Shown piece by piece: positions 27,935 through 38,599 of a stretch of DNA of 59,424 bases. The translations under genes were made by a program, and so were the position numbers. Source of the DNA: a virus (taxonomy: Duplodnaviria > Caudoviricetes). Under the pieces are notes generated by a model that was given only the letters and a program-made list of their open reading frames with translations, had not been told where the DNA came from and searched no databases. The stretch is from positions 1 through 59,424 of IMG/VR virus record IMGVR_UViG_3300048772_000090; one strand, 5' to 3'. Position 1 is the stretch's first letter; the number at the start of each line of letters is the position of its first letter.

Positions 27935-29326
27935 TTACTGCTGTGCTTCGTGCTGCTGGATAAAGTCGAGTGTTGCTTCTGAAAAACCATCCACATGTAG
28001 CCACTCACCATAGCCGATGCCATTACGGTCTGCACCGACGTTGATGAGGTAGTTATTCTTACCGAACGGCTTTGCGCTCGATGGCTTATTCACCAAGTCG
28101 CAGTCCTGCTCGTCCGTAAAGACCACGATACGGTCGGCGTCTGATTCCTTCTCCCGCAGCACGTCAATCACTTGCTTGAGGAAGATTCCGCCGCCGCCAA
28201 TTGTGTGACACGTCTTCTCATATGAGAGCAGGTCGCGGAGTCCGAATCCCCTGCGCGGAGGAATCAGCATCGTAGCGTGCTTGCGAGCGCAGTCGTCTCC
28301 AGCGGTTGCGTAGATTACTACGTCTTCGCAGACCTCACGAAGCAGCATTGCCAAAGCCGCAGCCGCACTCAGCCTATCCAGTTCGGACTTGCCAGAGATT
28401 TGACCGTGCATCGACCCAGAGCAATCCACAACTAGCACGGTCTTACCTGCCAGTTTAGGTTGACCCTCAAGGCAACGGAACATCGCTTGCTCCAACTCAG
28501 GCTCCAACTTTGGCGCATACTTCGCCGCCGTAATGAACCGGAAAGGAAGAACGCGCTCCGTCCTCATATTCGTCAAAGCCCCGCGAATAACCGACTGATC
28601 CACCTTCGCTTCCTGCATATTCCGCAGGTTGCGAAGCAACGCCAGAGCACCAAGCTGATTCTCTTCGATGAGACGAGTAAACGTCGCCTTCTTATCCTTA
28701 CCAGCCGACAGATTCGACTCCCAAGTGTCAGGAGCCGTCAACTTGTTCTCGGCCAGTTCCTTCCAGAGTGCCGTCTGCTCATCGTTCTGAGGCTTTGCAT
28801 GGACGAGGAAGAGCACGTCGCGCATGGCTACTTGGCCATCCCGGTTCGCGTACTTGCTCAAGGAATATCTGTCGAACTTCTGGAATGCCGCCGCTAGACC
28901 CTTCTTCATCTGAGCCGTCAAGGGCTGCTTTCCGTCCTTCCAGTGCATCGCAATAAGCTCGGCCATCTCGTCAGGACGCTGCACACAGGAAGCGATTGCA
29001 CCTGATACGACAGCGCGAGCCTCTTCCGTCTTGGCGCGGATCAGTGCAACGATAAGCCAGAGCGGGGCATGGCGCAGCTTGAACTTCGTCCGCGCCTCAT
29101 ACGCGATGTTACCGACGATCCCCGCACCATCCTTCAACTTCAGGACAGCAGCAACTTCATCGTGGATGCGCTTGGCAATCTCGACACCCTCTTCGTAGAA
29201 AGTGCCCTCAAAGAGCATCGTCGCCATCACAGAGCGGCGAAGCTGTTGAACAGCGTTAATGCGAACGGCTACCGCACCCTCATGGGTGTGGATAGGCGGA
29301 GTCTTTACGGCGACGTTGGTACGCAT
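27935..29326 (-). CDS. Ro60/Rsr-like TROVE domain protein with vWA domain
   Basis: THEGAVA, FEGTFYE, TWES, ALLRNLRNM, LPFRF, vWA MIDAS VVDCSGSM and VFTDEQ. Confidence 0.92.
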   Translation of the reverse strand: MRTNVAVKTPPIHTHEGAVAVRINAVQQLRRSVMATMLFEGTFYEEGVEIAKRIHDEVAAVLKLKDGAGIVGNIAYEARTKFKLRHAPLWLIVALIRAKTEEARAVVSGAIASCVQRPDEMAELIAMHWKDGKQPLTAQMKKGLAAAFQKFDRYSLSKYANRDGQVAMRDVLFLVHAKPQNDEQTALWKELAENKLTAPDTWESNLSAGKDKKATFTRLIEENQLGALALLRNLRNMQEAKVDQSVIRGALTNMRTERVLPFRFITAAKYAPKLEPELEQAMFRCLEGQPKLAGKTVLVVDCSGSMHGQISGKSELDRLSAAAALAMLLREVCEDVVIYATAGDDCARKHATMLIPPRRGFGLRDLLSYEKTCHTIGGGGIFLKQVIDVLREKESDADRIVVFTDEQDCDLVNKPSSAKPFGKNNYLINVGADRNGIGYGEWLHVDGFSEATLDFIQQHEAQQ

Positions 29327-29346
29327 GGTTTACTCTCCCTTTTGCT

Positions 29347-29380
29347 GCAAGATAAAGGGCTACCCCGGAGGATAGCCCTT
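29347..29380 (-). terminator. hairpin plus weak U-tract between the Y RNAs and the TROVE gene
   Basis: AAGGGCTA-loop-TAGCCCTT followed by TATCTT on the minus strand. Confidence 0.5.
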
Positions 29381-29388
29381 AGTATTGA

Positions 29389-29526
29389 TCGGTCGGAACA
29401 TACGCCTACGGTAATTTTACGTGCTCTACCACTGAGCTACGCTTCGCGGTGACCCGAAAAGCGGAAGGATTCGAACCTTCGTCCTCGTCCTTAGCATGGA
29501 AGTAACCGTAAACTTCACCAGACCGA
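29389..29526 (-). ncRNA. YrlA-like Y RNA 1 (tRNA-mimic domain)
   Basis: Terminal stem TCGGTC/GACCGA; T-arm GAAGG-TTCGAAT-CCTTC precedes D-arm TAGCTCAGTGGTAGAGC (permuted order typical of YrlA); next to the Ro60 gene. Confidence 0.85.
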
Positions 29527-29534
29527 ACATCTAA

Positions 29535-29666
29535 GAGCCGAGAACATTCGTAACAATCTCCCTTGCGGGAATCTTGCCTTACCAATTAGGCGAGTAGTTA
29601 GATTTCTCTAACCCCATTGGAATTGAACCAATAATAGAGATGTAATTGTTACTACCACTACGGCTC
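29535..29666 (-). ncRNA. YrlA-like Y RNA 2
   Basis: Terminal stem GAGCCG/CGGCTC; T-arm TTGG-TTCAATT-CCAA then D-arm GCCTAATTGGTAAGGC; shares TAC.TC and TGTTC motifs with RNA 1. Confidence 0.75.
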
Positions 29667-29683
29667 GTACTTATAAAACTTTT

Positions 29684-29763
29684 GTCGAAGGAACAAGCGA
29701 ACTCGGAAGGTGCCCGAAGGCTTTTCTGTTCAAGAGAAGTATCCGAACTCTTCACCATTCGAC
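29684..29763 (-). ncRNA. short Y-RNA-like RNA lacking the tRNA domain
   Basis: GTCGAA/TTCGAC stem with the same TGGTGAAG, TACTTC and TGTTCC motifs as RNA 1. Confidence 0.65.
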
Positions 29764-29784
29764 AAAACTTGTACTTCTAAACTT

Positions 29785-29910
29785 CGCGAAGCAGACGGGA
29801 GTCGAAACCCGTAGGAGTCATTAAAAGTGGCCCCTGTCACCATCCAAGAGAGACTTTCGAAAGTCCGTCTCGTCAACCTGCAATCTGGGTATCAGCCAGA
29901 AGGCTTCGCG
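29785..29910 (-). ncRNA. unknown tRNA-like structured RNA
   Basis: 8-bp terminal stem CGCGAAGC/GCTTCGCG, 3' T-arm-like ACGGG-TTTCGACT-CCCGT, three internal hairpins. Confidence 0.5.
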
Positions 29911-29952
29911 CTATTCCCCGCCGTCGCGGGAAACTCAAACTCAACATTCACA

Positions 29953-29981
29953 ACTCTAAGCGCAGTTCTAAAACTTGTCAA
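29953..29981 (-). promoter_or_regulatory. sigma70-like promoter of the Y RNA-Ro60 unit (TTGACA-17-TAGAGT)
   Basis: Perfect -35 with 17-nt spacer. Confidence 0.65.
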
Positions 29982-30015
29982 GCAAAATCTGCGCTTTATT
30001 TCCACAAATCTAAAA

Positions 30016-30090
30016 TGGAGCGGGAGAAGGGAATTGAACCCTCTGCGCCTTGCTTGGAAGGCAAGCACTCTACCGATGAGCTACTCCCGC
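30016..30090 (-). tRNA. tRNA-Gly(TCC)
   Basis: Cloverleaf; CTTGC-CTTCCAA-GCAAG; CCA. Confidence 0.92.
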
Positions 30091-30351
30091 CTATTTCTTC
30101 ACAACGTCCTTCCAGAACTCCACAACACTCTCAATCCCTGTATCGTCCATCAACTCGAAATCTACTTCCCCGATGGACTCTATCGAAAGGTCGCAGCATG
30201 TATCCACTTTGGCCTCCAGAGCCTTGCAGCGCATCACCTCTAGCTTCTCTTGGCACTGCATGACGGCGGATACCATATCGTCGGCACGGAAGACCATATC
30301 CGGGACAGGAGTACACTCACAACCTGATAACGTAGCAATGTAAACTGGCAT
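30091..30351 (-). CDS. hypothetical protein within tRNA operon 1
   Basis: GGGAGG RBS, start MPVYIATL, 86 aa. Confidence 0.6.
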   Translation of the reverse strand: MPVYIATLSGCECTPVPDMVFRADDMVSAVMQCQEKLEVMRCKALEAKVDTCCDLSIESIGEVDFELMDDTGIESVVEFWKDVVKK

Positions 30352-30387
30352 GTTTGAATCCTCCCGAACAATAGTAACACTGAAACA

Positions 30388-30465
30388 TGGTAGCGGATAC
30401 TGGACTTGAACCAGTCGCCTCAGCCTTATCAAGACTGCGCTCTTCTCAGGATGAGCTAATCCGCC
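30388..30465 (-). tRNA. tRNA-Ile(GAT)
   Basis: CAGTC-TTGATAA-GGCTG; CCA. Confidence 0.9.
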
Positions 30466-30477
30466 ACGTGAAATGGA

Positions 30478-30553
30478 TGGTACCCAGTAGAGGAGTCGAA
30501 CCTCTCTAGCCAGTTTGTAGGACTGGAGCCTGAAACCGATAGGCTAACCGGGC
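30478..30553 (-). tRNA. tRNA-Val(TAC), C33
   Basis: CCAGT-CCTACAA-ACTGG; CCA. Confidence 0.8.
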
Positions 30554-30558
30554 GAATA

Positions 30559-30634
30559 TGGCGCGAACGGGGAGATTCGAACTCCTGTCTCACTGATCGA
30601 CAATCAGTTGCTTTGGCCACTAAGCTACGTTCGC
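30559..30634 (-). tRNA. tRNA-Asp(GTC)
   Basis: ACTGA-TTGTCGA-TCAGT; G73; CCA. Confidence 0.88.
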
Positions 30635-30706
30635 AAAACTGTTAGGCCGTTCAGTCGCATCCAGAAGGGATATTCATTGATCCCTGCGCTTACTAGACCC
30701 GTAAAA

Positions 30707-30783
30707 TGGTGGGCGATGGCAGATTCGAACTGCCGACTGAAATTTAGGAAATTTCTGTGATTATCCAATTTCACCAAACGCCC
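30707..30783 (-). tRNA. tRNA-Arg(CCT)
   Basis: GAAAT-TTCCTAA-ATTTC; CCA. Confidence 0.88.
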
Positions 30784-30792
30784 AAAACTTGA

Positions 30793-30868
30793 TGGTCGAA
30801 CCGCTGGGATTCAGACCCAGAACTGTGTCTTCGGAGGGCACTGTGATATTCAGTTTCACCACGGCTCG
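30793..30868 (-). tRNA. tRNA-Arg(CCG)
   Basis: GTGCC-CTCCGAA-GACAC; atypical T-loop TCTGAAT; CCA. Confidence 0.8.
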
Positions 30869-30871
30869 AAA

Positions 30872-30945
30872 TGGTGCCGCAAAGGATACTCGAAATCCTG
30901 TTGGATGCGTGAGAAGCATCTATCCTACCCTTGAATGATTGCGGC
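30872..30945 (-). tRNA. tRNA-Glu(CTC)
   Basis: GATGC-TTCTCAC-GCATC; CCA. Confidence 0.85.
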
Positions 30946-30946
30946 A

Positions 30947-31024
30947 TGGTCCGAAGGACGAGACTCTAACTCGCTAGGAACGGCTTGAAGGGCCGCTTGC
31001 TCGATACACTTTGCATTCCTTCGG
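30947..31024 (-). tRNA. tRNA-Glu(TTC), C33, atypical D/T loops
   Basis: GCGGC-CCTTCAA-GCCGT; acceptor CCGAAGG/CCTTCGG; CCA. Confidence 0.65.
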
Positions 31025-31032
31025 ATAAAAGA

Positions 31033-31107
31033 TGGAGCATCCACCCCGAATCGAACGGGGATCACAACCTTAGAAGGGAAGTCTCTATCCGCTTGAGCTA
31101 TGGACGC
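31033..31107 (-). tRNA. tRNA-Arg(TCT)
   Basis: Loop CTTCTAA with a weak anticodon stem; CCA. Confidence 0.75.
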
Positions 31108-31108
31108 A

Positions 31109-31187
31109 TGGTCCCCGTGGCATGGATTTGAACCTGCGGCCTCTACCTTAAAGGGGTAGCACTCTAACCGGACTGAGTTACACGGGG
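31109..31187 (-). tRNA. tRNA-Lys(TTT), C33
   Basis: CTACC-CCTTTAA-GGTAG; CCA. Confidence 0.8.
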
Positions 31188-31193
31188 ATAAAC

Positions 31194-31268
31194 TGGTGGC
31201 AGCGCTGGGACTTTAACCCAGATCGAACTCCTTAAGAGGGAGGCATGTTGAATTAACACCACGCTGCC
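31194..31268 (-). tRNA. tRNA-Lys(CTT)
   Basis: CCTCC-CTCTTAA-GGAGT; T-loop TTAAAGT; CCA. Confidence 0.8.
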
Positions 31269-31270
31269 AT

Positions 31271-31364
31271 TGGTACCGGAAGAGGGAATCGAACCCGTCT
31301 AGCATCGGTTATCGACCGACTATATGAGGAGTATAAGGCCCCGCTGTGTCCTACACTTTCCGGC
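31271..31364 (-). tRNA. atypical tRNA-like RNA, probably Ile(TAT), with a long extra arm
   Basis: Acceptor GCCGGAA/TTCCGGT-ACCA and TTCGATT T-loop; tiny D-arm; loop CTTATAC; extra arm GTCGG-TCGATAA-CCGAT. Confidence 0.5.
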
Positions 31365-31367
31365 GAA

Positions 31368-31461
31368 TCTTAGGTGGTCGCTATAGCCTCCCCGCCTCAG
31401 TTTTGGGGCGATGTTGCTATTACAGAGCAGTCCTATCCCGTCGAATAGGAAGCGCCCAAGA
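31368..31461 (-). ncRNA. unknown structured RNA between tRNAs
   Basis: Terminal stem TCTTGGGCG/CACCTAAGA with internal hairpins. Confidence 0.4.
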
Positions 31462-31539
31462 TGGTGCCAGTGGACAGGATTGAACTGTCGGCCTCGTCGT
31501 TATGGGTGACGCGCTCTAAGCCTACTGAGCTACACTGGC
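31462..31539 (-). tRNA. tRNA-Met/Ile2(CAT), C33
   Basis: CGTCA-CCCATAA-CGACG; CCA. Confidence 0.82.
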
Positions 31540-31540
31540 A

Positions 31541-31615
31541 TGGCAGGGGAGGACGGAACCGAACCGTCAATTTCGGTTTTGGAGACCGAGAGTTTTCCTG
31601 TTAGCCTACTCCCCT
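31541..31615 (-). tRNA. tRNA-Trp(CCA)
   Basis: TCGGT-CTCCAAA-ACCGA; A1-U72, G73; CCA. Confidence 0.88.
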
Positions 31616-31625
31616 AAAAATTCAT

Positions 31626-31642
31626 TTCAATTGTCAACGAGC
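31626..31642 (-). promoter_or_regulatory. boxA-like antitermination element, operon 1
   Basis: GCTCGTTGACAATTGAA directly after the attenuator; no -10 at promoter spacing. Confidence 0.5.
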
Positions 31643-31699
31643 AAAAGTAAACCCCAGCCTGAGCCGGGGTCTGATAAAGCGGTGTTGCCGACAGACCCC
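31643..31699 (-). terminator. attenuator 1: antiterminator GGGGTCTG/CAGACCCC versus terminator ACCCCGGC-TCAG-GCTGGGGT-TTACTTTT
   Basis: Two mutually exclusive stems sharing ACCCC, starting right after the leader stop codon. Confidence 0.8.
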
Positions 31700-31771
31700 T
31701 CAAACGCGCATATCCCACCCGTCCCGCTTAATGCGGACTATGGTTTCGACGTTTTTGGTTGATCTGGTCAT
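31700..31771 (-). CDS. leader peptide 1 MTRSTKNVETIVRIKRDGWDMRV
   Basis: AGGA RBS; 23 codons plus TGA abutting the antiterminator; codons match downstream tRNAs. Confidence 0.75.
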   Translation of the reverse strand: MTRSTKNVETIVRIKRDGWDMRV

Positions 31772-31841
31772 CGTTTAATCCTAAATTGTGCTCTCATTAC
31801 CCACCGAGCAGGTGCATCCATGCTTTTACTGCACTTGAGAA

Positions 31842-31871
31842 ACTATATCACACGTCAAACTGAAAGCGCAA
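31842..31871 (-). promoter_or_regulatory. promoter of tRNA operon 1 (TTGCGC-18-TGnTATAGT)
   Basis: Extended -10; same 18-nt spacing as the early promoters. Confidence 0.55.
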
Positions 31872-31882
31872 GGAATATTTTA

Positions 31883-31961
31883 TGGTGCGCCCGGAGGGAC
31901 TTGAACCCCCTGCCTTTTGGTTCGTAGCCAAACGCTCTGAATCCAGATGAGCTACGGGCGC
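31883..31961 (-). tRNA. tRNA-Arg(ACG)
   Basis: TTTGG-CTACGAA-CCAAA; CCA. Confidence 0.92.
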
Positions 31962-31971
31962 AAACTTTTAT

Positions 31972-32061
31972 GAGGCGGCTTCATGCTACCCGGTCTAGCC
32001 GGACACGTGACCCGCTCTGACTGGCCCGGAGTTTCCTCCGCGTCTAGGCAGCGACCGCCTC
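31972..32061 (-). ncRNA. unknown multibranch structured RNA
   Basis: Terminal stem GAGGCGG/CCGCCTC; internal CGGAG-GAAA-CTCCG and CCGG-CTAGA-CCGG. Confidence 0.45.
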
Positions 32062-32077
32062 TGTAGTCACTCAAGCA

Positions 32078-32186
32078 TGGTCGGGTTTGCGAGTCTGCCA
32101 GTCTCGCACTAGAGCGCCCCATGCGCCCCGTGCTTTGATCCGTCCGTCCCGAAGGCTCTGGATCAGGCCGTTTACACTAGCACCCG
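32078..32186 (-). tRNA. atypical tRNA-Pro(TGG)-like RNA with a hairpin inserted in the D-loop
   Basis: C1-G72/A73 Pro-type end CCCGACCA; GGGCG-CATGGGG-CGCTC; TGATCC...GGATCA insert; 9-nt T-loop. Confidence 0.5.
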
Positions 32187-32194
32187 GTAAATGA

Positions 32195-32271
32195 TGGTCG
32201 GAGAGGTGAGATTCGAACTCACGTCATCTCGCTCCCAGGGCGAGTGCCTGAAGCCTCTAGGCTACTCTCCG
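32195..32271 (-). tRNA. tRNA-Pro(TGG), C33
   Basis: CTCGC-CCTGGGA-GCGAG; C1-G72; CCA. Confidence 0.88.
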
Positions 32272-32276
32272 ACTAT

Positions 32277-32352
32277 TGGTGCCAACTCAGCGAATCGAAC
32301 GCTGTTCCATTCCTCTTCAGGGAATTGTAATCACCAGACCTACGCAGTTGGC
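32277..32352 (-). tRNA. tRNA-Phe(GAA)
   Basis: ATTCC-CTGAAGA-GGAAT; CCA. Confidence 0.82.
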
Positions 32353-32360
32353 AAATCATT

Positions 32361-32435
32361 TGGTGGAGACGGAGGGAATCAAACCCTCAACTTCGGAGTG
32401 CAAAACCGATGTGTTCTCATTAGCACCACGTCCCC
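32361..32435 (-). tRNA. tRNA-Ala(TGC)
   Basis: G3:U70; loop TTTGCAC; CCA. Confidence 0.88.
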
Positions 32436-32439
32436 AAAC

Positions 32440-32607
32440 TTATTTACCGAAAATCTTTTCCATCAATTCCTTCATCCACGGATACTCTTCCGGCTTGCAG
32501 AGGATCATAGGGTACTCATACTTATACGGACCTAGAGTCTCCGCATACGCTTTCTGAAGCATCTCTAGTGTGACCTGACCCGTATTCTCCTTCGCGTCGT
32601 AGTACAT
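32440..32607 (-). CDS. 55-aa hypothetical protein (MYYDAKENTG...KIFGK)
   Basis: AGGAGG RBS; fills the gap between tRNA-His and tRNA-Ala; below the ORF-track cutoff. Confidence 0.6.
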   Translation of the reverse strand: MYYDAKENTGQVTLEMLQKAYAETLGPYKYEYPMILCKPEEYPWMKELMEKIFGK

Positions 32608-32627
32608 TGCTTCCTCCTAACAAACTT

Positions 32628-32703
32628 TGGGGCGGGATGTGGTACTCGAAACCACGTAGACTGATGCCACAGATCAGCGCCTTACCTCTCGGCCAATCCC
32701 ACC
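32628..32703 (-). tRNA. tRNA-His(GTG)
   Basis: G-1:C73; CTGAT-CTGTGGC-ATCAG; CCA. Confidence 0.88.
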
Positions 32704-32710
32704 ACATCTT

Positions 32711-32792
32711 TGGAGCACGGAGAGGGATTCGAACCCCCGGTGTTGGATGCCTGCTTACAAAACAGGTGCAGTCGCCGCTGTGCCATCCGTGC
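32711..32792 (-). tRNA. tRNA-Thr(TGT), enlarged variable loop
   Basis: CCTGT-TTTGTAA-GCAGG; CCA. Confidence 0.85.
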
Positions 32793-32902
32793 AAATCTTA
32801 ACCGGAATCTCTCTTCCGCAGTCACGCCACTAGACTCGCTGCTCGGACTTTCCGAGTGTGCTATACCCCGGACGGGGTTACGTCGGGCAGGTGTCGCCCA
32901 TT

Positions 32903-32978
32903 TGGAGCCGTCTGCGAGAATTGAACTCGCTGCCTCCGAATTACCAATCCGGTGCTCTTCCATACGAGCTACGACGGC
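32903..32978 (-). tRNA. tRNA-Thr(GGT)
   Basis: CCGGA-TTGGTAA-TTCGG; CCA. Confidence 0.88.
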
Positions 32979-33521
32979 CTATCCTACGGTTGCGTACTTC
33001 GTGTCTCCAGCGTTGTCAAAGTACAGATAAGGACGCCACTTTTCATCCTCAGCGCCCATCGACTTCAAGATGAAACGTGATGTATGTATCGAGGCCGCAC
33101 GAGGCTTGTGGATCAACTTCATCCCCGCTTCCTCTGGTGTCCTGTCCGCCTTACGACGATTGTCCTCGACACAGCAGGCTACAAGGTTACTCCATGTGTC
33201 CTTTCCTCCTTGCGCCCGAGGTACAATGTGATCCAGCGTCAACTTAGACGGATGGAAAACAATGCCACAGTACATGCAAGTGTTCCGATCCCGCAAGAAG
33301 ATGTTCTTCCTGCTCAAAATCTGGACGCGAACAGGAATGTACCGAAACTCCTTCAAGCGAATTACCGAAGGGAACATGATTCCGGGATAAATCTCTTGTC
33401 CTGTGTGCTCTTGAATAACAGCCCGATCCTTGCAAACCAATGTGAGAGCACGTCGGCAGGAACGAATGCTGATCGGCTCAAATGAGCTATTTAAAACTAG
33501 CGTTGCTTTGTTCATGTTCAT
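32979..33521 (-). CDS. HNH endonuclease
   Basis: TLVLNSSFEP, RDRNTCMYCG, LTLDHIVPRAQGG, WSNLVACC, KADRTPEEAGM. Confidence 0.9.
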   Translation of the reverse strand: MNMNKATLVLNSSFEPISIRSCRRALTLVCKDRAVIQEHTGQEIYPGIMFPSVIRLKEFRYIPVRVQILSRKNIFLRDRNTCMYCGIVFHPSKLTLDHIVPRAQGGKDTWSNLVACCVEDNRRKADRTPEEAGMKLIHKPRAASIHTSRFILKSMGAEDEKWRPYLYFDNAGDTKYATVG

Positions 33522-33565
33522 AACGCACTCTCCTTTCTGTTTACTTTACCACTAACTGCGCATCC

Positions 33566-33639
33566 AGCCTACGTTATTTGGGTGACGGATTAAATGTCCG
33601 CCTGTACGTCCCGTCGCATCTCGCGGTACAGCGTAGGCT
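33566..33639 (-). ncRNA. unknown structured RNA
   Basis: Terminal stem AGCCTACG/CGTAGGCT enclosing two hairpins. Confidence 0.4.
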
Positions 33640-33647
33640 AGAAACTT

Positions 33648-33724
33648 TGGAGCAGGCGTCCCGAGTCGAACGGGAATCGTCTTTCTTACGAGGAAAGTGC
33701 ATAAGCCACTTCTGCCACGCCTGC
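33648..33724 (-). tRNA. tRNA-Thr(CGT)
   Basis: CTTTC-CTCGTAA-GAAAG; CCA. Confidence 0.88.
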
Positions 33725-33736
33725 GTAAATCTAAGA

Positions 33737-33811
33737 TGGAGCGGGGTATCGGGATTGAACCGATGATCTTCGGTCTGGCAGACCAATGCTTTGCCACTCA
33801 GCTAACCCCGC
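33737..33811 (-). tRNA. tRNA-Gly(GCC)
   Basis: TTGGT-CTGCCAG-ACCGA; U73; CCA. Confidence 0.9.
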
Positions 33812-33816
33812 AAAAA

Positions 33817-33890
33817 TGGTTCGGTCGCTCCGAGTCGGACGGAGATAGAGAGTGTCAAAGGCTCTCGAATTGCCATTATTCGACGACCGA
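33817..33890 (-). tRNA. tRNA-Gln(TTG)
   Basis: Loop CTTTGAC; U1-A72; CCA. Confidence 0.8.
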
Positions 33891-33896
33891 TCAAAC

Positions 33897-33971
33897 TGGT
33901 TCCGGGTGGAGGATTCTGACCCCCATCTTTAGGTTCAGAGCCTAAAATCCTCACATTTGGACGAACCCGGA
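33897..33971 (-). tRNA. tRNA-Gln(CTG)
   Basis: TTAGG-CTCTGAA-CCTAA; U1-A72; CCA. Confidence 0.82.
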
Positions 33972-33982
33972 TCAATCCTTGC

Positions 33983-34000
33983 TATTCAGTTGTCAAACTC
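33983..34000 (-). promoter_or_regulatory. boxA-like antitermination element, operon 2
   Basis: GAGTTTGACAACTGAATA resembles rrn-spacer TTTGAAAACTGAATA; no -10 at promoter spacing. Confidence 0.5.
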
Positions 34001-34120
34001 CCGATCCCACTAGGGGCGGTGAAACGAAACTTTGCGACGGTGGCTATAACCTGCCCGCTGCCACCGCCGAAGTCCACGTCTGTAGTTAGCGGCCTACCTA
34101 CTCCGGGTCGTATCAAACTT

Positions 34121-34197
34121 TGGCTCATCAGGTCGGCCTCGGACCGACATCCCCGAAATTAACAGTTTCGTGCTCTGCCTACTTGAGCTACCGATGA
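34121..34197 (-). tRNA. tRNA-Asn(GTT)
   Basis: CGAAA-CTGTTAA-TTTCG; G73; CCA. Confidence 0.85.
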
Positions 34198-34207
34198 ACA
34201 TTACTGC

Positions 34208-34296
34208 AAAACTTTGGGGTCACCAGATTTTCTCCGGTGACCCCATCTACTGCTCGCTGTTTTATAAATGTCAGTCGAGAGAAGGACGGCCACCGG
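34208..34296 (-). terminator. attenuator 2: antiterminator CCGGTGGCC/GGTCACCGG versus hairpin GGGGTCACCGGA-GAAAA-TCTGGTGACCCC-AAAGTTTT
   Basis: Mutually exclusive stems; the U-tract is imperfect. Confidence 0.7.
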
Positions 34297-34369
34297 GCGC
34301 ATGATTACCGCGCGGCTGTGCTTGCGTTGCCGCTGGGGTAAAGGTTCGCGTTGTGGCTGCGTTCTTCAT
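34271..34369 (-). CDS. leader peptide 2 MKNAATTRTFTPAATQAQPRGNHAPGGRPSLD
   Basis: ATG a few nt after the predicted TSS; codons 3-29 all encode amino acids of the downstream tRNA set. Confidence 0.8.
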   Translation of the reverse strand: MKNAATTRTFTPAATQAQPRGNHAPGGRPSLD

Positions 34370-34381
34370 GTCTCTTTTGTC

Positions 34382-34410
34382 AATGTACCCGCGTTGAGAT
34401 TATTTGTCAA
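34382..34410 (-). promoter_or_regulatory. promoter of tRNA operon 2 (TTGACA-17-TACATT)
   Basis: Near-consensus sigma70. Confidence 0.75.
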
Positions 34411-34417
34411 CTGCTAT

Positions 34418-35078
34418 TTACCAGATTCCGCGAACATAGTCCTTGTAACGCCAACTCTTGCCAGTAATGTGGTCGTTTACGTCCCCGTCCTTCACGCGGA
34501 TGGTACGGCGTTTGTCGCCACGCTGTCCACTTCCAACCTGCTTCTTCCTATCGGCTGAAATGCTCCCGTGCCTATGTTCCTTATCGGCAGCGAACAGTCT
34601 TGCGGTCAGGATCGCTAGAGCAATATCCTTGTTCCGCTTCTGTGATCGCTCGTCTTCGCAGCGAACCGTTAGGCCCGTAGGAATATGCTTGAGGATGACG
34701 CAGGTTTCGAGTTTGTTGGCGTTCTGTCCGCCCTTGCCTCCTGAACGGGTAGTGGAGTATTCCAGATCGTTAGGGGATACAGAAAATTCGTATGGCTGTG
34801 GTTCTGGGAAGGTAGCGACCGTAACCGTAGAGGTTTGGACTCGTCCACTACGCTCTGTAGGCGGGATTCTCTGCCATCTGTGGCCGCCTGACTCGTTAGC
34901 AAATATCTTCTCAACTCCCTTTCCGGTAACTCGGAAAACAACAATTCCCGGTCTTTCCTCAGTCAATTCGAGGTCAAAGCCCCCTCCGCTCCGCAAGTTT
35001 TGTGTAGATGCGGAATTGGTCGATCACAAGTAATTTAGCATCCATTCCTCCCTCAGCAGCCCTAATCTCAATTATCAT
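34418..35078 (-). CDS. short class-I peptide chain release factor (lacks domain 1), expressed through a +1 frameshift; join(35078..34977, 34975..34418), about 219 aa
   Basis: AGGAG RBS; MIIEIRAAEGG (RF domain 2 start) in frame 0; ESGGHRWQRIPPTE...RVQTS, GGKGGQNANK, RSQKRN and RGDKRRT in frame +1; junction CGGAGG-GGG-CTT-TGA-C. Confidence 0.88.
34973..34988 (-). promoter_or_regulatory. prfB-type programmed +1 frameshift signal
   Basis: Internal SD GGAGG, 3-nt spacer, CTT TGA C; same layout as the RF2 signal AGGGGG-TAT-CTT-TGA-C. Confidence 0.88.
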
Positions 35079-35228
35079 TTCATTTCTCCTATTCGCGTCA
35101 GGATAAAACCCGAATGGCCCCATTTCTGAGGCCACTCGCGGCTCGTGCAAGGACATTATGTACGCAGGCACAATTAGGAGCGGTACGCTCCCTGGTTGAT
35201 GCGGCCTTTCGACCGCGAGATAAGCATA

Positions 35229-35579
35229 CTATTCACATGGGGTTAGGTCAAGGTAATAGTTCTTACCCGGAACAAACGTGTCGCAGACATCGGGATTATC
35301 AACAAGGAACGTCATGGTTCCGCTTGGCGTTGCGGCAGCGAAACTAACATCCTCTGGATTACTTGTGTCGTACTGCGCGGCTAACCGCACGTTCTGAGCA
35401 AACTTTCCAGTAGAGATGTACTTGACTTTCTTACCATTATCCGTGTACTCAGTTCCAACCAGAGCAGCATAGTCCTCCGGCGTTACTGAGTCCTCGAAAA
35501 CTCGCTTTGAAACGGCGTTGTCAGTCAGCTCTACGCTAACCACACGGAACTTGCAGCGGGTACGAATCGCTTCTGGCAT
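35229..35579 (-). CDS. hypothetical protein
   Basis: AGGAG RBS; RCKFRV...FAAATPSG...PGKNYYLDLTP. Confidence 0.75.
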   Translation of the reverse strand: MPEAIRTRCKFRVVSVELTDNAVSKRVFEDSVTPEDYAALVGTEYTDNGKKVKYISTGKFAQNVRLAAQYDTSNPEDVSFAAATPSGTMTFLVDNPDVCDTFVPGKNYYLDLTPCE

Positions 35580-35675
35580 AAACTCTCCTAAATTTGGTTG
35601 GGAAGCACCGCTATGCTTGCGGCATCACTGAGCCACGCCAAGGTTATCCTGCGGCTCACATGGACAGCATAACAT

Positions 35676-35714
35676 AAAACAGCAATGGCTCCCACTTAAG
35701 TTGAGAGCCACTGC
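35676..35714 (-). terminator. intrinsic terminator closing the ncRNA cluster
   Basis: GCAGTGGCTCTCA-ACTTAAG-TGGGAGCCATTGC-TGTTTT. Confidence 0.7.
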
Positions 35715-35742
35715 CGGTCGTGCCTTCTATTTATAGGAAATC

Positions 35743-36789
35743 TTTGCAGCGGGTCGGATTCCTATACCGGCATGGCGGTCTGCACTAGGTGATGCCTCTT
35801 TCGAGGGCTTATGCTGGCTCTCGCTGCCGCGTGGGTTTCTCACCCATCCGCCGAACTGCTAATCCCTTCCGGGACTCGGACGACCTAGCCAAGTTAGCGG
35901 GTTCCTCCCCGCCGCCACTGCAAACTTTGCCCGTTCGTATTGAACGGAGCCGAAGTCACCAACAATCGAGTGCTGGACTCCTACTCCGATCTCTGCGCCA
36001 CCCCATCTTGGGTACTCGCGTCAGGATTGCAGATCGTTTCGCTTGGAATTCTTTGCAGCGTTCTGCTCTCTCGTTACTCCTCGCGGCGTCTAGAAGCTAC
36101 CGATTCTGGAAGACCGAACACCTCAAAAGAGTGGAGTCTTGGGGTCTAAAGGAGTGTCCTACCACTCTTCCGCTGCAAACCTTTGAGGCGCGGCTCCGAT
36201 TCTGGCTAACCAGTCACCGTTTTATCCTTTGCGGGAGAGACCTGTCAGTTCCGCCTCAAACTTTTCCCGTCCCAAACCGATAAGAGAAGGTGGCCCCTCG
36301 GACGGCCACTAACCGCCCATTCTCTCCGGCTCGACTTAGCAGACCGATAAGGCGTTCTGAACAGCCTCCGGCCCGCGACAGGAAACTTTATAATCCCCTA
36401 AAATGTGGGGCCGTTCGGCCTTGCAGATACTAGGCTTCGACCGATCTTACAGCTTATTATGGACGATCAATCGGCTTGGCGTCCAGCTATTACCTCTCCA
36501 CCGTTCTCTTCCTACTAGGCCCCTTCGTCGGGGGTATTCTAAAATCCAGCGGCGTTGCGTCATTGTCGCTGCGAAAGTATGCCTACGTTCGCGTTCTCGG
36601 ATGGCCCCGGATTTCTCCGTCTGACGCTATCCCTGATGTTTGCTTGCCGCTGAAACTCAAACTATGCTCGTCTTTCCGAGCCGCCAAGGGACGTTACCGT
36701 TACCCTACGCGTCTTTCCGTGTCTCGTCACTCCCGTTACTGAGGACGTTTTGAATGGCCGTCTATGAACGTGAGTCGAAGTCTCCCAGC
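35743..36789 (-). ncRNA. tandem cluster of at least six unknown structured RNAs
   Basis: No RBS-supported ORF; consecutive units closed by 7-11-bp terminal stems, several separated by the AAAGTTT-type spacer also seen after tRNA CCA ends. Confidence 0.6.
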
Positions 36790-36797
36790 CAGATCAA

Positions 36798-36867
36798 TGG
36801 TTGCGCAGGGAAGAGTTGAACTTCCGTCCTTGGCCTTATGAGAGCTAGGCATACCGCTATCCGCGCA
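36798..36867 (-). tRNA. 70-nt tRNA(CAT)-like RNA with a reduced D-arm
   Basis: Acceptor TGCGCGG/CTGCGCA-ACCA, loop CTCATAA, T-arm GGAAG-TTCAACT-CTTCC. Confidence 0.55.
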
Positions 36868-36878
36868 GGACAAATATC

Positions 36879-37460
36879 TCATCCTGCGCCAACGATGTCA
36901 AGTGGTATTTTATAGAATATGGTGCGTTGAGCAGGAGTCGAACCTGCGGTGTTTGCTCGTAGAGTCACAGATTTACAGTCTGCTGCCTTCGCCACTGGGC
37001 CACCAACGCATAACTTTTCATATTTCTTTGGAGAACGACGTTTTTGCCGACACTCCCTGCAATCTGTTTCAAGTCCTCTACGCTTTGACCTATCCTTCGT
37101 AAAATCTCCAACTGGAAGCCAATCCTGATGCCCATAACACCATGCCATTCCGGGAGGATCAATGCGTCTCAAATGGGCGTTGGCGTCCATTGCTCGGAGA
37201 TCACGTTTGGTTTTCTCTAAATGGCAACCGTGACAACGTGCTTTGCATTTCTCCAATTCTTCCAATCTTTTAGCATCACCCCAACTCCATACAGTGTGGC
37301 TCACTTTTGTCGAAGGATCAACATGATCTAGTTCAAGATTGTCCCAAGTCCCGCAATCCACACATGGACCGTTCTCTGCAAACCACTTTCTCCTACGTTC
37401 TTTGACGACTCGCTCATACCACGCCTTTTGTGCTGCCTTCCACTTCACCATATCTCTCAT
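36879..37460 (-). CDS. HNH endonuclease; the reading frame runs through tRNA-Tyr
   Basis: CVDCG..NLELDHVDP...CHGCH plus a second CYGH/CREC zinc finger. Confidence 0.8.
   Translation of the reverse strand: MRDMVKWKAAQKAWYERVVKERRRKWFAENGPCVDCGTWDNLELDHVDPSTKVSHTVWSWGDAKRLEELEKCKARCHGCHLEKTKRDLRAMDANAHLRRIDPPGMAWCYGHQDWLPVGDFTKDRSKRRGLETDCRECRQKRRSPKKYEKLCVGGPVAKAADCKSVTLRANTAGSTPAQRTIFYKIPLDIVGAG
36920..37009 (-). tRNA. tRNA-Tyr(GTA)
   Basis: GCAGA-CTGTAAA-TCTGT; long variable region; CCA. Confidence 0.9.
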
Positions 37461-37466
37461 GGCGGA

Positions 37467-37495
37467 AGTATACAGCTATAACGGCGGAAATACAA
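37467..37495 (-). promoter_or_regulatory. promoter for a leaderless HNH transcript (TTGTAT-17-TATACT, ATG 6 nt downstream)
   Basis: Spacing places +1 on the A of the ATG at 37460. Confidence 0.55.
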
Positions 37496-37511
37496 CAACT
37501 AAACACATTAA

Positions 37512-37604
37512 TGGAGGAAGAAGCGAGATTTGAACTCGCGGTGCCGGTCACCCGGACACTCCCGTTTTCAAAACGGGCGCTTTAGACCACTCAGCCATCC
37601 TTCC
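37512..37604 (-). tRNA. tRNA-Ser(TGA)
   Basis: CCCGT-TTTGAAA-ACGGG; long variable arm; CCA. Confidence 0.9.
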
Positions 37605-37608
37605 AAAC

Positions 37609-37694
37609 TGGCGGTAGGGAAGCGATTTAAACGCTTAATACCTTTCGGTATGCTCGGTTTCGAATCGAGGTGTCCCATCAATGACAGCCCTACC
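37609..37694 (-). tRNA. tRNA-Ser(CGA)
   Basis: Loop TTCGAAA; long variable arm; atypical D/T loops; CCA. Confidence 0.75.
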
Positions 37695-37698
37695 AAAC

Positions 37699-37788
37699 TG
37701 GCAGTGAGGATGGGATTCCAACCCACGATACCCTTACAGGTATTCTTGCTTTCCAAGCAAGCGCCTTCGAGCACTCGGCCACCTCACT
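37699..37788 (-). tRNA. tRNA-Ser(GGA)
   Basis: CTTGC-TTGGAAA-GCAAG; long variable arm; CCA. Confidence 0.85.
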
Positions 37789-37793
37789 GTAAA

Positions 37794-37884
37794 TGGCGAT
37801 GAGACTGAGATTCGAACTCAGGACACCCTTTTGAGGTGCTTCGTCTTAGCAGGACGATGCCTTAAGCCACTCGGCCATCTCACC
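37794..37884 (-). tRNA. tRNA-Ser(GCT)
   Basis: TCGTC-CTGCTAA-GACGA; long variable arm; CCA. Confidence 0.92.
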
Positions 37885-37893
37885 GTAAAACTT

Positions 37894-37970
37894 TGGTGCG
37901 CGACCGGGAAATCGAATCCCGAAACACCTCTGTTTGAAAAAGGCGGCTTTGCCTATTTGCCTAGTCGCGC
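37894..37970 (-). tRNA. tRNA-Leu(CAA), short variable loop
   Basis: CCTTT-TTCAAAC-AGAGG; A73; CCA. Confidence 0.82.
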
Positions 37971-38403: not shown

Positions 38404-38503
38404 AAACGAAAACCCCTCCGTTTTGAGTGGAGGGGTTCGTCACAACCTTGGGAGGATTACACCTTATATCCCTCTCCAACGCGCAAGCGAACCCCCGCTC
38501 AAA
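38404..38503 (-). terminator. attenuator 3: antiterminator TTTGAG-CG-GGGGTTCG/CGAACCCC-TCCA-CTCAAA versus terminator AACCCCTCC-loop-GGAGGGGTT-TTCGTTT
   Basis: Mutually exclusive stems; the terminator ends directly at the 5' end of tRNA-Leu. Confidence 0.82.
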
Positions 38504-38547
38504 CTGAGCGATGACAGGCAATACGAGTTGGATAAGAGGTTCTTCAT
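38464..38547 (-). CDS. leader peptide 3 MKNLLSNSYCLSSLSLSGGSLARWRGI
   Basis: 13 of codons 4-17 are Leu/Ser/Tyr/Cys, the amino acids of the downstream tRNAs. Confidence 0.82.
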   Translation of the reverse strand: MKNLLSNSYCLSSLSLSGGSLARWRGI

Positions 38548-38563
38548 ATCAGATCGCAAAGTT

Positions 38564-38592
38564 AGATTACATTCCTGCCGAGCGGTTGTCAA
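38564..38592 (-). promoter_or_regulatory. promoter of tRNA operon 3 (TTGACA-17-TAATCT)
   Basis: Near-consensus sigma70. Confidence 0.72.
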
Positions 38593-38599
38593 GCGGTTT

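What the first reader, a model, noticed from the sequence alone, without database searches (positions are those of the whole stretch)
31643..31871. Leader 1 and attenuator for the Trp/Met/Ile/Lys/Arg/Glu/Asp/Val/Gly operon
Seen: ATG ACC AGA TCA ACC AAA AAC GTC GAA ACC ATA GTC CGC ATT AAG CGG GAC GGG TGG GAT ATG CGC GTT TGA. 18 of 23 residues, including all of the last 13, belong to the operon's nine amino acids, and all nine are present, including rare AGA, CGG and ATA. The antiterminator strand GGGGTCTG starts immediately after the TGA, so a ribosome reaching the stop codon would occlude it and let the terminator form. The match is looser than in the other two leaders (three ACC, TCA, AAC and two CGC unmatched; no GAG or AGG). 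Two further hairpins (GTGCA/TGCAC, TGCTC/GAGCA) in the 5' UTR are unexplained.
Basis: partly seen in the sequence, partly recalled or inferred. Interest (0 to 1): 0.82.

Follow-up and report, generated by a model that had tools for sequence, protein, structure and literature searches.

The report
Leader-peptide attenuator gating phage tRNAs
A 23-codon mini-gene and a switchable stop signal sit in front of twelve tRNA genes of a peat-soil phage and probably let the virus transcribe those tRNAs only when the ribosome runs short of them, a control known for amino-acid genes but not for tRNA genes.

Summary

Alone, Leader 1 is moderately convincing.
- For: 17/22 residues are in the operon's amino-acid set (p=0.003). 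Eight consecutive codons (ATT AAG CGG GAC GGG TGG GAT ATG) are each read by a downstream tRNA (p=0.004). 10/12 downstream tRNAs are sampled (p=0.01).
- Against: total codon match is 11/22 (p=0.16). The antiterminator helix gives p=0.09 against shuffles.

Context lifts it. Two sister leaders in the same array match their own tRNA sets at p<=3e-5. Together the three operons cover all 20 amino acids. Related huge-phage contigs carry leaders whose peptides change with the tRNAs downstream. In a scan of 385 small ORFs, 8 reached a perfect 8-codon window, against 0, 1 and 1 in swapped-tRNA controls. One 456-kb phage has a likely orthologous Trp-first switch.

Modelling puts the antiterminator at P=0.99 until the ribosome's A site reaches codon 22, then at about 0.

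The two 5'UTR hairpins are at chance level. No RNA data cover the element and no close orthologue was found. Seven literature searches found no precedent. Confidence about 0.68.

The parts
31842..31871 (-). Possible weak internal promoter of extended -10 type: TTGCGC (31871-31866), 18-nt spacer, TG (31850-31849), TATAGT (31847-31842)
   Evidence: Read from the sequence. It is NOT listed by the promoter scan, because the -35 matches only 3 of 6. Inferred and weak. Transcripts from the Leader 2 promoter (34410..34382) may also run into this element, since no terminator was seen in between.
31772..31841 (-). 5' untranslated region with two 5-bp hairpins (GTGCA/TGCAC, TGCTC/GAGCA) and a 17-codon upstream ORF whose TGA overlaps the leader ATG (ATGA)
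   Evidence: Hairpin count and folding energy are at chance level. The uORF 31821..31768 was seen. No function is assigned.
31779..31782 (-). Shine-Dalgarno AGGA, 7 nt before the ATG
   Evidence: Sequence. The motif and spacing are similar to the TAGGAG/GGAGG sites before the neighbouring real ORFs.
31700..31771 (-). Leader ORF, 23 codons plus TGA: MTRSTKNVETIVRIKRDGWDMRV
   Evidence: Amino-acid match 17/22 (p=0.0034). 10 of 12 downstream tRNAs are touched (p=0.0095).
31709..31732 (-). Sensor core, codons 14-21: ATT AAG CGG GAC GGG TGG GAT ATG. Each is read by a downstream tRNA (Ile-gat, Lys-ctt, Arg-ccg, Asp-gtc, Gly-tcc, Trp-cca, Asp-gtc, Met-cat)
   Evidence: a run of 8 has p=0.0037, and p=0.0013 when at least 7 distinct tRNAs are also required. 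It is the only one of 355 ATG ORFs of 15-40 codons in the window with such a run. It is one of 8 perfect windows among 385 ORFs.
31692..31699 (-). Antiterminator 5' strand GGGGTCTG, starting at the base after the stop codon
31666..31673 (-). Shared strand CAGACCCC: it pairs either with the antiterminator 5' strand or with the terminator 3' arm
   Evidence: Three-way compensatory change against the G002 element.
31642..31672 (-). Intrinsic terminator: AGACCCCGGC-TCAG-GCTGGGGTTT, then ACTTTTG
   Evidence: 10 pairs, 6 G-C. Hairpin -16.1 kcal/mol.
30016..31615 (-). Regulated unit: tRNA-Trp, Met(cat), a 193-nt tRNA-like spacer, Lys-ctt, Lys-ttt, Arg-tct, Glu-ctc, Arg-ccg, Arg-cct, Asp, Val-tac, Ile-gat, an 86-aa ORF, Gly-tcc
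   Evidence: No promoter-like site lies between the terminator and tRNA-Trp.

Best explanation
Leader 1 is a ribosome-mediated (leader-peptide) transcription attenuator. It gates the distal third of a phage tRNA array, from tRNA-Trp to tRNA-Gly-tcc.

How it would work: RNA polymerase transcribes a 23-codon ORF carrying an SD. The polymerase comes from a weak internal promoter and/or from the upstream Leader 2 unit.

- tRNAs plentiful: the ribosome runs to codons 22-24 and its footprint covers GGGGUCUG, which begins right after the TGA. The complementary strand CAGACCCC is then free to join the terminator hairpin, and transcription stops about 25 nt before tRNA-Trp.
- A needed tRNA scarce: the ribosome lags, above all on the eight-codon core ATT AAG CGG GAC GGG TGG GAT ATG, which samples Ile, Lys, Arg, Asp, Gly, Trp and Met tRNAs encoded downstream. 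GGGGUCUG:CAGACCCC forms first, the terminator is blocked, and the tRNA genes are transcribed.

The product (tRNA) thus feeds back on its own synthesis.

Shown: the anatomy, the statistics, the in-silico dependence on ribosome position, and the family context.

Inferred: that the ORF is translated, that the terminator works, that the choice is kinetic, and that the signal is tRNA supply (for example after host anticodon-nuclease attack, or a codon-usage mismatch) rather than amino-acid supply.
For: 1. Anatomy. SD, ORF, stop, antiterminator strand, overlapping terminator and tRNA-Trp are present in that order.

2. Match to the downstream tRNAs.
- 17/22 residues are in the amino-acid set (p=0.0034).
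- 10/12 tRNAs are touched (p=0.0095).
- There is a run of 8 decodable codons (p=0.0037).
- It is the only one of 355 small ATG ORFs in the window with such a run.
- Leader 1 against the other two operons gives p=0.90 and p=0.99.

3. Ribosome-position model. Antiterminator P is 0.99-1.00 up to codon 20, 0.87 at codon 21, 0.08 at codon 22, and 0.00 at codon 23 and the stop.

4. Sister leaders in the same array.
- Leader 2 (34369-34271, MKNAATTRTFTPAATQAQPRGNHAPGGRPSLD): 25/31 codons, p<1e-5, 12/12 tRNAs.
- Leader 3 (38547-38464, MKNLLSNSYCLSSLSLSGGSLARWRGI): 15/26 codons, p=3e-5, 10/10 tRNAs.
- The three operons together cover all 20 amino acids.

5. Relatives. Leaders whose peptides track the tRNAs downstream:
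- MTKMRPMPMFPPSPM... before Pro, Pro and, further on, Met tRNAs
- ...GAVGAVAAVCEAEGIVAAGAAD... before Val/Gly/Ala/Cys/Asp/Glu
- ...RKHQRRNNRW... before Trp/Gln/His/Arg/Asn/Lys
- MNTRRNPQPQPGVI before Pro Pro Gln Pro

6. Systematic scan. 8 of 385 ORFs have a perfect 8-codon window: 3 in the window and 5 in other contigs. The three swapped-tRNA controls gave 0, 1 and 1 of 385.

7. Likely orthologue in the 456-kb contig G002.
- It is also followed first by tRNA-Trp.
- It shares GGGTCTG...AGACCC and the post-terminator spacer TTTTG.TC.TTGA.AATT...TAGGGG.GTA. That spacer pattern occurs only in G002 and its near-identical twin among the IMG/VR viral contigs.
- One position changed in concert in all three strands. 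In the window it reads G31699/C31666/G31655. In G002 it reads C/G/C (read).

8. Antiterminator placement. In 10 of the 12 relatives' leaders, and in sister Leader 3, the strand complementary to the terminator's 5' arm lies inside the 3' end of the ORF. In G4_PQ, as in Leader 1, it starts just after the stop. The 12th (G2_PMF) gave no convincing antiterminator (p=0.73). For 8 of the 12 relatives' leaders, shuffle p<=0.03.
Against: - Strict codon match over the whole ORF is only 11/22 (p=0.157). ACC x3, TCA, AAC, GTC x2, GAA, ATA and CGC x2 are not read by the operon's tRNAs under the wobble rules I used. Glu-ctc and Arg-cct are not sampled.
- The antiterminator helix alone is not significant (p=0.094).
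- At equilibrium, on the full transcript, the terminator wins in every ribosome position (P>=0.86-0.87). The switch therefore has to be kinetic. Three bases of the terminator's 5' arm (GGC) lie outside the antiterminator and could seed strand displacement.
- There is no recognisable anti-antiterminator, so the element would read through when untranslated.
- Unlike the other leaders it has no consensus -35 and it has a long 5'UTR.
- The whole 267-nt spacer folds no better than shuffles (z=-0.41).
- No close orthologue was found, and the one distant orthologue rests on a short alignment.
- Two of six G002 leaders (Tyr/Leu, Pro/Met/Phe) match their operons only weakly.
Confidence: 0.68

Rival explanations
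1. It is a plain intrinsic terminator or processing spacer between two tRNA sub-operons. The 23-codon ORF and the extra GGGGTCTG complement are fortuitous, and any read-through is constitutive leak.
For: - Total codon match is 11/22 (p=0.157).
- Antiterminator shuffle p=0.094.
- The terminator is favoured at equilibrium in all modelled states.
- The spacer's fold is at shuffle level.
- There is no consensus promoter.
- Other gaps of the array hold non-tRNA sequence too.
Against: - SD at the right distance, an 8-codon run (p=0.0037) and 10/12 tRNAs touched (p=0.0095).
- It is the only such ORF among 355 in the window.
- The antiterminator strand starts exactly at the base after the stop.
- Two sister elements in the same array are highly significant, and there are five independent perfect-window leaders in other contigs.
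Confidence: 0.15
2. It is a conditional terminator that does not read translation. The GGGGUCUG/CAGACCCC/terminator alternative would be set by an RNA-binding protein, by a tRNA binding the leader directly (T-box-like), or by processing of the polycistronic tRNA precursor.
For: - Alternative pairings exist.
- The element lies inside a long tRNA precursor that RNase P and other nucleases must cut.
- The motif AAAGTTT is enriched beside the tRNAs (18 matches against 9.45 expected, 12 of them in the array).
- A Ro60-like protein and a YrlA-like RNA are encoded 2 kb away.
Against: - No T-box or other Rfam family matches 31616-31882, even at E<=5.
- This reading does not explain the SD, the ORF, or why leader peptides in relatives change with the tRNA content.
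Confidence: 0.09
3. The ORF encodes a functional 23-residue peptide with its own terminator. The resemblance to the tRNA set is incidental.
For: There is an SD and an ATG. Other small ORFs with strong SDs sit inside the array (55 aa at 32440-32607, 86 aa at 30091-30351).
Against: - The peptide sequence is not conserved in the likely orthologue (G002), while the RNA switch is.
- Leaders in relatives share composition rules, not sequence.
- A terminator placed between a gene and the tRNAs that follow, with no promoter after it, would silence twelve tRNA genes.
Confidence: 0.05

Closest known systems
Leader-peptide attenuators of enterobacterial amino-acid operons (trpL, hisL, leuL, thrL, ilvL, pheL); recalled textbook knowledge, with Rfam families for His, Leu, Thr and Trp leaders
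   Same: - A short translated ORF rich in the relevant codons.
- An intrinsic terminator before the structural genes.
- An antiterminator that shares a strand with the terminator.
- The ribosome's position decides between the two.
- ilvL and thrL are already multivalent, sensing several amino acids.
   Different: - The regulated genes are tRNA genes, not biosynthetic enzymes, so the product sensed is the tRNA itself.
- The sensor samples seven or eight different tRNA species once each, instead of repeating one codon.
- The antiterminator strand starts right after the stop codon, and no 1:2 anti-antiterminator is evident.
- No sequence or structure match to any Rfam leader family.
pheST (pheM leader) attenuation of phenylalanyl-tRNA synthetase in E. 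coli (recalled)
   Same: Leader-peptide attenuation applied to a gene of the translation apparatus. It responds to the availability of charged tRNA.
   Different: A single amino acid is sensed. The target is a synthetase, not tRNA genes. It is cellular, not viral.
T-box riboswitches (Rfam RF00230, recalled accession)
   Same: Transcription attenuation that answers to tRNA status through antiterminator/terminator competition.
   Different: A T-box binds uncharged tRNA directly through a specifier codon and the T-box sequence, without translation. No T-box match here, and an SD-ORF is present instead.
Leaders 2 and 3 of the same array, and leaders in huge-phage contigs G001-G004 and L037
   Same: - The promoter/ORF/antiterminator/terminator/tRNA order.
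- The second codon starts with A in all 15 leaders collected.
- A core run of codons is read by the downstream tRNAs.
   Different: - Leader 1 has a real SD and a 5'UTR of about 65-110 nt, instead of a consensus TTGACA promoter a few bases before the ATG.
- Its antiterminator strand lies after the stop (as in the Pro/Gln leader of L005), not inside the ORF.
- Its whole-ORF codon match is the weakest of the three in the window.

Membership tests
Ribosome-mediated (leader-peptide) transcription attenuator | Short ORF with start codon and ribosome-binding site upstream of the regulated genes, on the same strand | tested here: met
   ATG ORF 31771..31700, with AGGA 7 nt upstream
Ribosome-mediated (leader-peptide) transcription attenuator | Leader codons enriched for those tied to the regulated product | tested here: met
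   Amino-acid level 17/22 (p=0.0034). Run of 8 decodable codons (p=0.0037). 10/12 tRNAs touched (p=0.0095). However, total decodable codons are 11/22 (p=0.157).
Ribosome-mediated (leader-peptide) transcription attenuator | Intrinsic terminator between leader and structural genes, with no promoter after it | tested here: met
   Hairpin 31672..31649 plus a T-rich tail. No promoter-like site before tRNA-Trp.
Ribosome-mediated (leader-peptide) transcription attenuator | Antiterminator helix mutually exclusive with the terminator | tested here: met
   GGGGUCUG:CAGACCCC (-16.7 kcal/mol) shares 7 nt with the terminator's 5' arm. Significance against shuffles is weak (p=0.094).
Ribosome-mediated (leader-peptide) transcription attenuator | A ribosome at the end of the leader destroys the antiterminator, while a ribosome stalled on the sensor codons leaves it intact | tested here: met
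   In silico only. Antiterminator P is 0.99-1.00 for the A site at codons 2-20, 0.08 at codon 22, and 0.00 at codon 23 and the stop. At equilibrium the terminator always wins, so kinetics must decide.
Ribosome-mediated (leader-peptide) transcription attenuator | Conservation of the switch, and co-variation of leader codons with the regulated genes, in relatives | tested here: inconclusive
   There is one distant likely orthologue (G002, plus a near-identical copy, L062) with a three-way compensatory change and a different, operon-matched peptide. No close orthologue was found.
Ribosome-mediated (leader-peptide) transcription attenuator | Read-through responds to translation of the leader and to tRNA supply | not testable with these tools
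   Needs reporter assays or 3'-end mapping
Curated Rfam leader and T-box families | Match to a covariance model (His/Leu/Thr/Trp leaders, T-box) | tested here: not met
   No match within 31616-31882 at gathering score or at E<=5

The most novel reading that the evidence does not exclude
This phage, and a clade of uncultured huge phages, run a complete modular tRNA-supply homeostat. Every tRNA sub-operon is gated by its own leader peptide, which samples the isoacceptors encoded behind it. There are three leaders here and six in a 456-kb relative, and in each phage they cover all 20 amino acids. The virus would thereby sense which host tRNAs are missing, through codon-usage mismatch or cleavage by anticodon-nuclease defences, and replace only those. 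Leader 1 would be the internal gate for Trp/Met/Lys/Arg/Glu/Asp/Val/Ile/Gly.
Probability: 0.45. Interest if true: 0.9.

Novelty: new variant of a known kind. Interest (0 to 1): 0.78.

Why it matters
Phage tRNA arrays are usually treated as passive supplements for codon usage, or as spare parts against tRNA-cleaving defences. How their expression is controlled is largely unknown.

A leader-peptide attenuator in front of tRNA genes would be product feedback at the level of individual tRNA species. That is a new use of a classical mechanism.
- It would give a direct, testable read-out of which tRNAs a phage "expects" to lack.
- It would offer compact multi-tRNA sensors for synthetic biology.
- It would help explain why tRNAs in huge phages are grouped by amino acid.

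Seven full-text searches found no description of leader-peptide attenuation of tRNA operons. Subscription-only literature and supplementary files were not searched.

Tried and rejected
- **Close orthologues of Leader 1: none found.**
  - The Ro60 anchor in viral contigs gave 13 loci. Only L001 (97%) is close, and it stops at window position 30268.
  - The 55-aa ORF anchor gave 0 relatives.
  - The tRNA-Trp 20-mer gave 0 hits in viral contigs.
  - The single metagenome scan, with a tRNA-Trp 19-mer, returned 9 contigs. None has a tRNA or any other similarity, so all are chance hits and the scan was wasted.
  - My first switch pattern was mis-specified by one base and could not have matched even G002. 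The corrected pattern found only G002, its near-identical copy L062, and one coding chance hit.
  - The same pattern gave 0 hits in genome contigs.
  - The Ro60 anchor in genome contigs gave 4 Acidobacteriota MAG contigs (51-56% identity) without tRNA arrays.
- **GenBank phages.** No near match was found. Distant matches cover only the flanking tRNAs: 0 of 45 records cover 80% of the query.
- **Sequencing runs.** 14 DNA runs from peat or permafrost hold at least half of the array's sampled words, and one of them may be the sample the window was assembled from. Laying 3 RNA runs and 1 DNA run gave no usable RNA cover and no variants over 31616-31882, so there is no expression evidence either way.
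- **Equilibrium folding with ribosome masks.** This shows no switch for Leaders 1 and 2. Only Leader 3 shows one, at codons 7-11. I take it as a limit of the model, not as support.
- **The 5'UTR hairpins.** Rejected as signal.
- **"Rare codons".** Rejected.
- **The search of earlier findings.** It was closed.
- **More distant array-bearing contigs (L023-L044).** Most show no obvious ATG leader. L037 and perhaps L035 are exceptions. In L027 a consensus promoter abuts tRNA-Trp directly, so the device is not universal.

Full report
**Setting**

The window is a whole 59.4-kb virus record with 50% G+C. It carries 34 tRNA genes, all on the minus strand, between 30016 and 38403. Rfam at gathering score finds only tRNAs (24 matches).

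Genes in and around the array:
- a Ro60/TROVE-like gene (27935-29326)
- two HNH endonucleases
- a truncated release-factor gene

No GenBank phage is close. The megablast search found nothing. Protein relatives of the release factor are uncultured huge phages at 48% identity or less. DNA of this phage is held by 14 peat or permafrost runs at half or more of the sampled words, one of which may be the window's own source sample.

**The observation**

- AGGA at 31782-31779
- a 23-codon ATG ORF at 31771-31700 (MTRSTKNVETIVRIKRDGWDMRV, stop TGA)
- GGGGTCTG at 31699-31692
- its perfect complement CAGACCCC at 31673-31666
- a terminator-like hairpin at 31672-31649 with a T-rich tail

The residue counts are right: 18 of 23 in the set, all nine amino acids present, the last 13 all in the set. 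The two 5-bp hairpins in the 5'UTR are real but no more than chance gives (2 against a mean of 1.39, P=0.38). The codons called rare are not rare in this phage.

**How strong is Leader 1 alone?**

I built wobble rules for the 12 downstream tRNAs and drew random ORFs from the codon usage of 15 long ORFs of the window.

| Measure | Value | p |
|---|---|---|
| Residues in the amino-acid set | 17/22 | 0.0034 |
| Distinct tRNAs touched | 10/12 | 0.0095 |
| Longest run of decodable codons | 8 (codons 14-21) | 0.0037 |
| Same run, with at least 7 tRNA species | 8 | 0.0013 |
| Total decodable codons | 11/22 | 0.157 |

- The run is ATT AAG CGG GAC GGG TGG GAT ATG.
- Among 355 ATG ORFs of 15-40 codons on both strands of the window, one has such a run.
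- The antiterminator duplex (-16.7 kcal/mol) is reached by 9.4% of dinucleotide shuffles of the upstream 67 nt. What is notable is less its strength than that it starts at the base after the stop.
- The whole spacer folds no better than shuffles (z=-0.41).

Taken alone, Leader 1 is suggestive but not compelling.

**Context inside the window**

Two more elements of the same build exist.

Leader 2 (34369-34271):
- It follows a TTGACA/TACATT promoter.
- It encodes MKNAATTRTFTPAATQAQPRGNHAPGGRPSLD.
- It precedes Asn, Gln x2, Gly-gcc, Thr x3, His, Ala, Phe, Pro and Arg-acg.
- 25 of 31 codons are decodable by these tRNAs (p<1e-5) and 12/12 tRNAs are touched.
- All three Arg codons are of the ACG type and all three Gly codons of the GCC type.

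Leader 3 (38547-38464):
- It encodes MKNLLSNSYCLSSLSLSGGSLARWRGI.
- It precedes Leu x5, Cys, Ser x3 and Tyr.
- 15/26 codons are decodable (p=3e-5) and 10/10 tRNAs are touched.

All six off-diagonal leader/operon comparisons give p>0.89. The three operons together cover all 20 amino acids. This raises the prior for Leader 1 considerably, because it is the only candidate gate for the remaining nine amino acids.

**Relatives**

The release-factor anchor brought 26 viral contigs, many with tRNA arrays on the same strand. I also fetched the other tRNA clusters of three of these records. Small ORFs in front of tRNA clusters there follow the same rule.

| Leader peptide | Downstream tRNAs | Contig |
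|---|---|---|
| MTNLTLSLTLYSLLSG... and two homologues | Tyr/Leu | G001-G003 |
| MTKMRPMPMFPPSPM... and two homologues | Pro/Met/Phe | G001-G003 |
| ...GAVGAVAAVCEAEGIVAAGAAD... | Val/Gly/Ala/Cys/Asp/Glu | G002 |
| ...TSQTRTTTSTQRITTATT... | Ile/Thr/Gln | G002 |
| ...ALSSSSSSSRSGSGG... | four Ser tRNAs | G002 |
| ...RKHQRRNNRW... | Trp/Gln/His/Arg/Asn/Lys | G002 |
| MNTRRNPQPQPGVI | Pro Pro Gln Pro | L005 |

A uniform scan took ATG ORFs of 10-60 codons ending 20-500 nt before a tRNA, and scored them against the tRNAs in the next 3 kb.
- 8 of 385 ORFs have a perfect 8-codon window: the three window leaders and five in other contigs (L045, L048, L049, L050, L037).
- The three controls, with tRNA sets swapped between loci, gave 0, 1 and 1 of 385.
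- In the complete 456-kb record G002, six leaders cover all 20 amino acids.
- Four of those six show clear diagonal dominance in a 6x6 matrix. Two (Tyr/Leu, Pro/Met/Phe) are weak.
- Leader 1's profile, 11/22 with a perfect core of 8, is like G002's Trp leader (11/30, core 8) and Ser leader (11/24, core 8). A non-matching N-terminus followed by a sensor core is therefore the usual build.
- The device is not universal. In L027 a promoter abuts tRNA-Trp directly.

**A likely orthologue**

G002's ...RKHQRRNNRW... leader is also followed first by tRNA-Trp. Rfam finds that tRNA although ARAGORN missed it.
- It shares with Leader 1 the strands GGGTCTG and AGACCC, and a spacer TTTTG.TC.TTGA.AATT...TAGGGG.GTA. 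A pattern of that spacer matches only G002 and its near-identical copy L062 in the viral collection. That pattern was derived from both sequences, so it measures rarity, not independence.
- At the base after AGACCC, the window has C31666, paired with G31699 in the antiterminator and with G31655 in the terminator. G002 has G, paired with C in both helices (read). One such three-way change keeps both alternative helices.
- The peptide differs and fits each phage's own operon.
- This is one comparison over a short alignment. I weigh it as supportive, not decisive.

**Mechanism**

The transcript was cut before the terminator's 3' arm, and a 28-nt ribosome mask was applied.

| Ribosome A site | P(antiterminator) |
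|---|---|
| No ribosome, or codons 2-20 | 0.99-1.00 |
| Codon 21 | 0.87 |
| Codon 22 | 0.08 |
| Codon 23 and stop | 0.00 |

- On the full transcript the terminator is favoured in every state. The decision must therefore be kinetic, as in classical attenuators.
- Three bases of the terminator arm lie outside the antiterminator and might seed displacement.
- There is no evident anti-antiterminator, so an untranslated leader should read through.
- I infer tRNA supply rather than amino-acid supply as the signal, because more tRNA does not help amino-acid starvation. This is not shown.
- No consensus promoter precedes Leader 1. The site TTGCGC-18-TGnTATAGT is weak and was not called by the scan. 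Leader 1 may therefore chiefly gate transcripts that arrive from Leader 2's unit, which would also explain why it alone has a true SD.

**Known relatives and novelty**

It works like the multivalent leader-peptide attenuators (ilvL and thrL, recalled). It is not a member of any curated Rfam leader or T-box family. Seven full-text searches returned nothing on leader-peptide attenuation of tRNA operons, in phages or otherwise. From these I saw only listings and abstracts, and supplements are closed. I rate it a new variant of a known kind.

**Limits**

No RNA evidence covers the element.

Noticed in passing
window 34271-34420 (minus): Leader 2. It has a TTGACA/TACATT promoter, the ORF MKNAATTRTFTPAATQAQPRGNHAPGGRPSLD, and a hairpin GGGGTCACC...GGTGACCCC before tRNA-Asn. 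25/31 codons are decodable by the next 12 tRNAs (p<1e-5).
   Followed up: partly
window 38404-38600 (minus): Leader 3. It has a TTGACA promoter, the ORF MKNLLSNSYCLSSLSLSGGSLARWRGI, and a terminator CCCCTCC...GGAGGGG before the Leu/Cys/Ser/Tyr tRNAs. 15/26 codons are decodable (p=3e-5). It is the only leader that shows an equilibrium switch window (codons 7-11). An RNA-library contig spans 38224-38665.
   Followed up: partly
window 29327-30015 (minus): A YrlA-like (Y RNA-like) match at 29402-29512 (33.9 bits, E=2e-4, below the gathering score) lies directly upstream of a Ro60/TROVE-like gene (27935-29326). Several further T-arm-like modules (GGTTCGA.TCC) lie in the same spacer.
   Followed up: no
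window 34418-35078 (minus): A release-factor gene without the N-terminal domain. Its best NCBIfam match is prfA (178 bits, below cut-off). It is split by an AGGGGG CTT TGA C site like the prfB +1 frameshift site.
   Followed up: partly
window 31269-31461 (minus): A 193-nt gap inside the regulated operon ends in a T-loop-like GGTTCGATTCC and ...TCCGGTACCA. ARAGORN and Rfam do not call it a tRNA. It may be a tRNA-like or Y-RNA-like RNA.
   Followed up: no
window 35720-36880 (minus): A stretch of about 1.1 kb without a convincing ORF, with a weak tRNA hit at 36802-36866. RNA-library contigs from three runs lie on about 36420-36824. Its function is unknown.
   Followed up: no
window 29676-37894 (minus): The motif AAAGTTT occurs 18 times in the window against 9.45 expected. 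12 of these are on the minus strand inside the array, often abutting tRNA ends. It may be a processing signal.
   Followed up: partly
window 31768-31821 (minus): A 17-codon upstream ORF (MDAPARWVMRAQFRIKR) whose TGA overlaps the Leader 1 ATG (ATGA). It has no SD, and its best 8-codon window is 5/8.
   Followed up: no
L047 (G002:25000-27300): The 456-kb relative carries two tRNAs with anticodon CTA (amber-reading) and one with a four-base anticodon call. This hints at stop-codon recoding in that phage.
   Followed up: no
L064-L067: The closest cellular-genome relatives of the Ro60-like protein (51-56% identity) lie on contigs of Acidobacteriota MAGs (Candidatus Angelobacter, Sulfotelmatobacter). 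This is a weak hint at the host phylum, or at mis-binned phage DNA.
   Followed up: no
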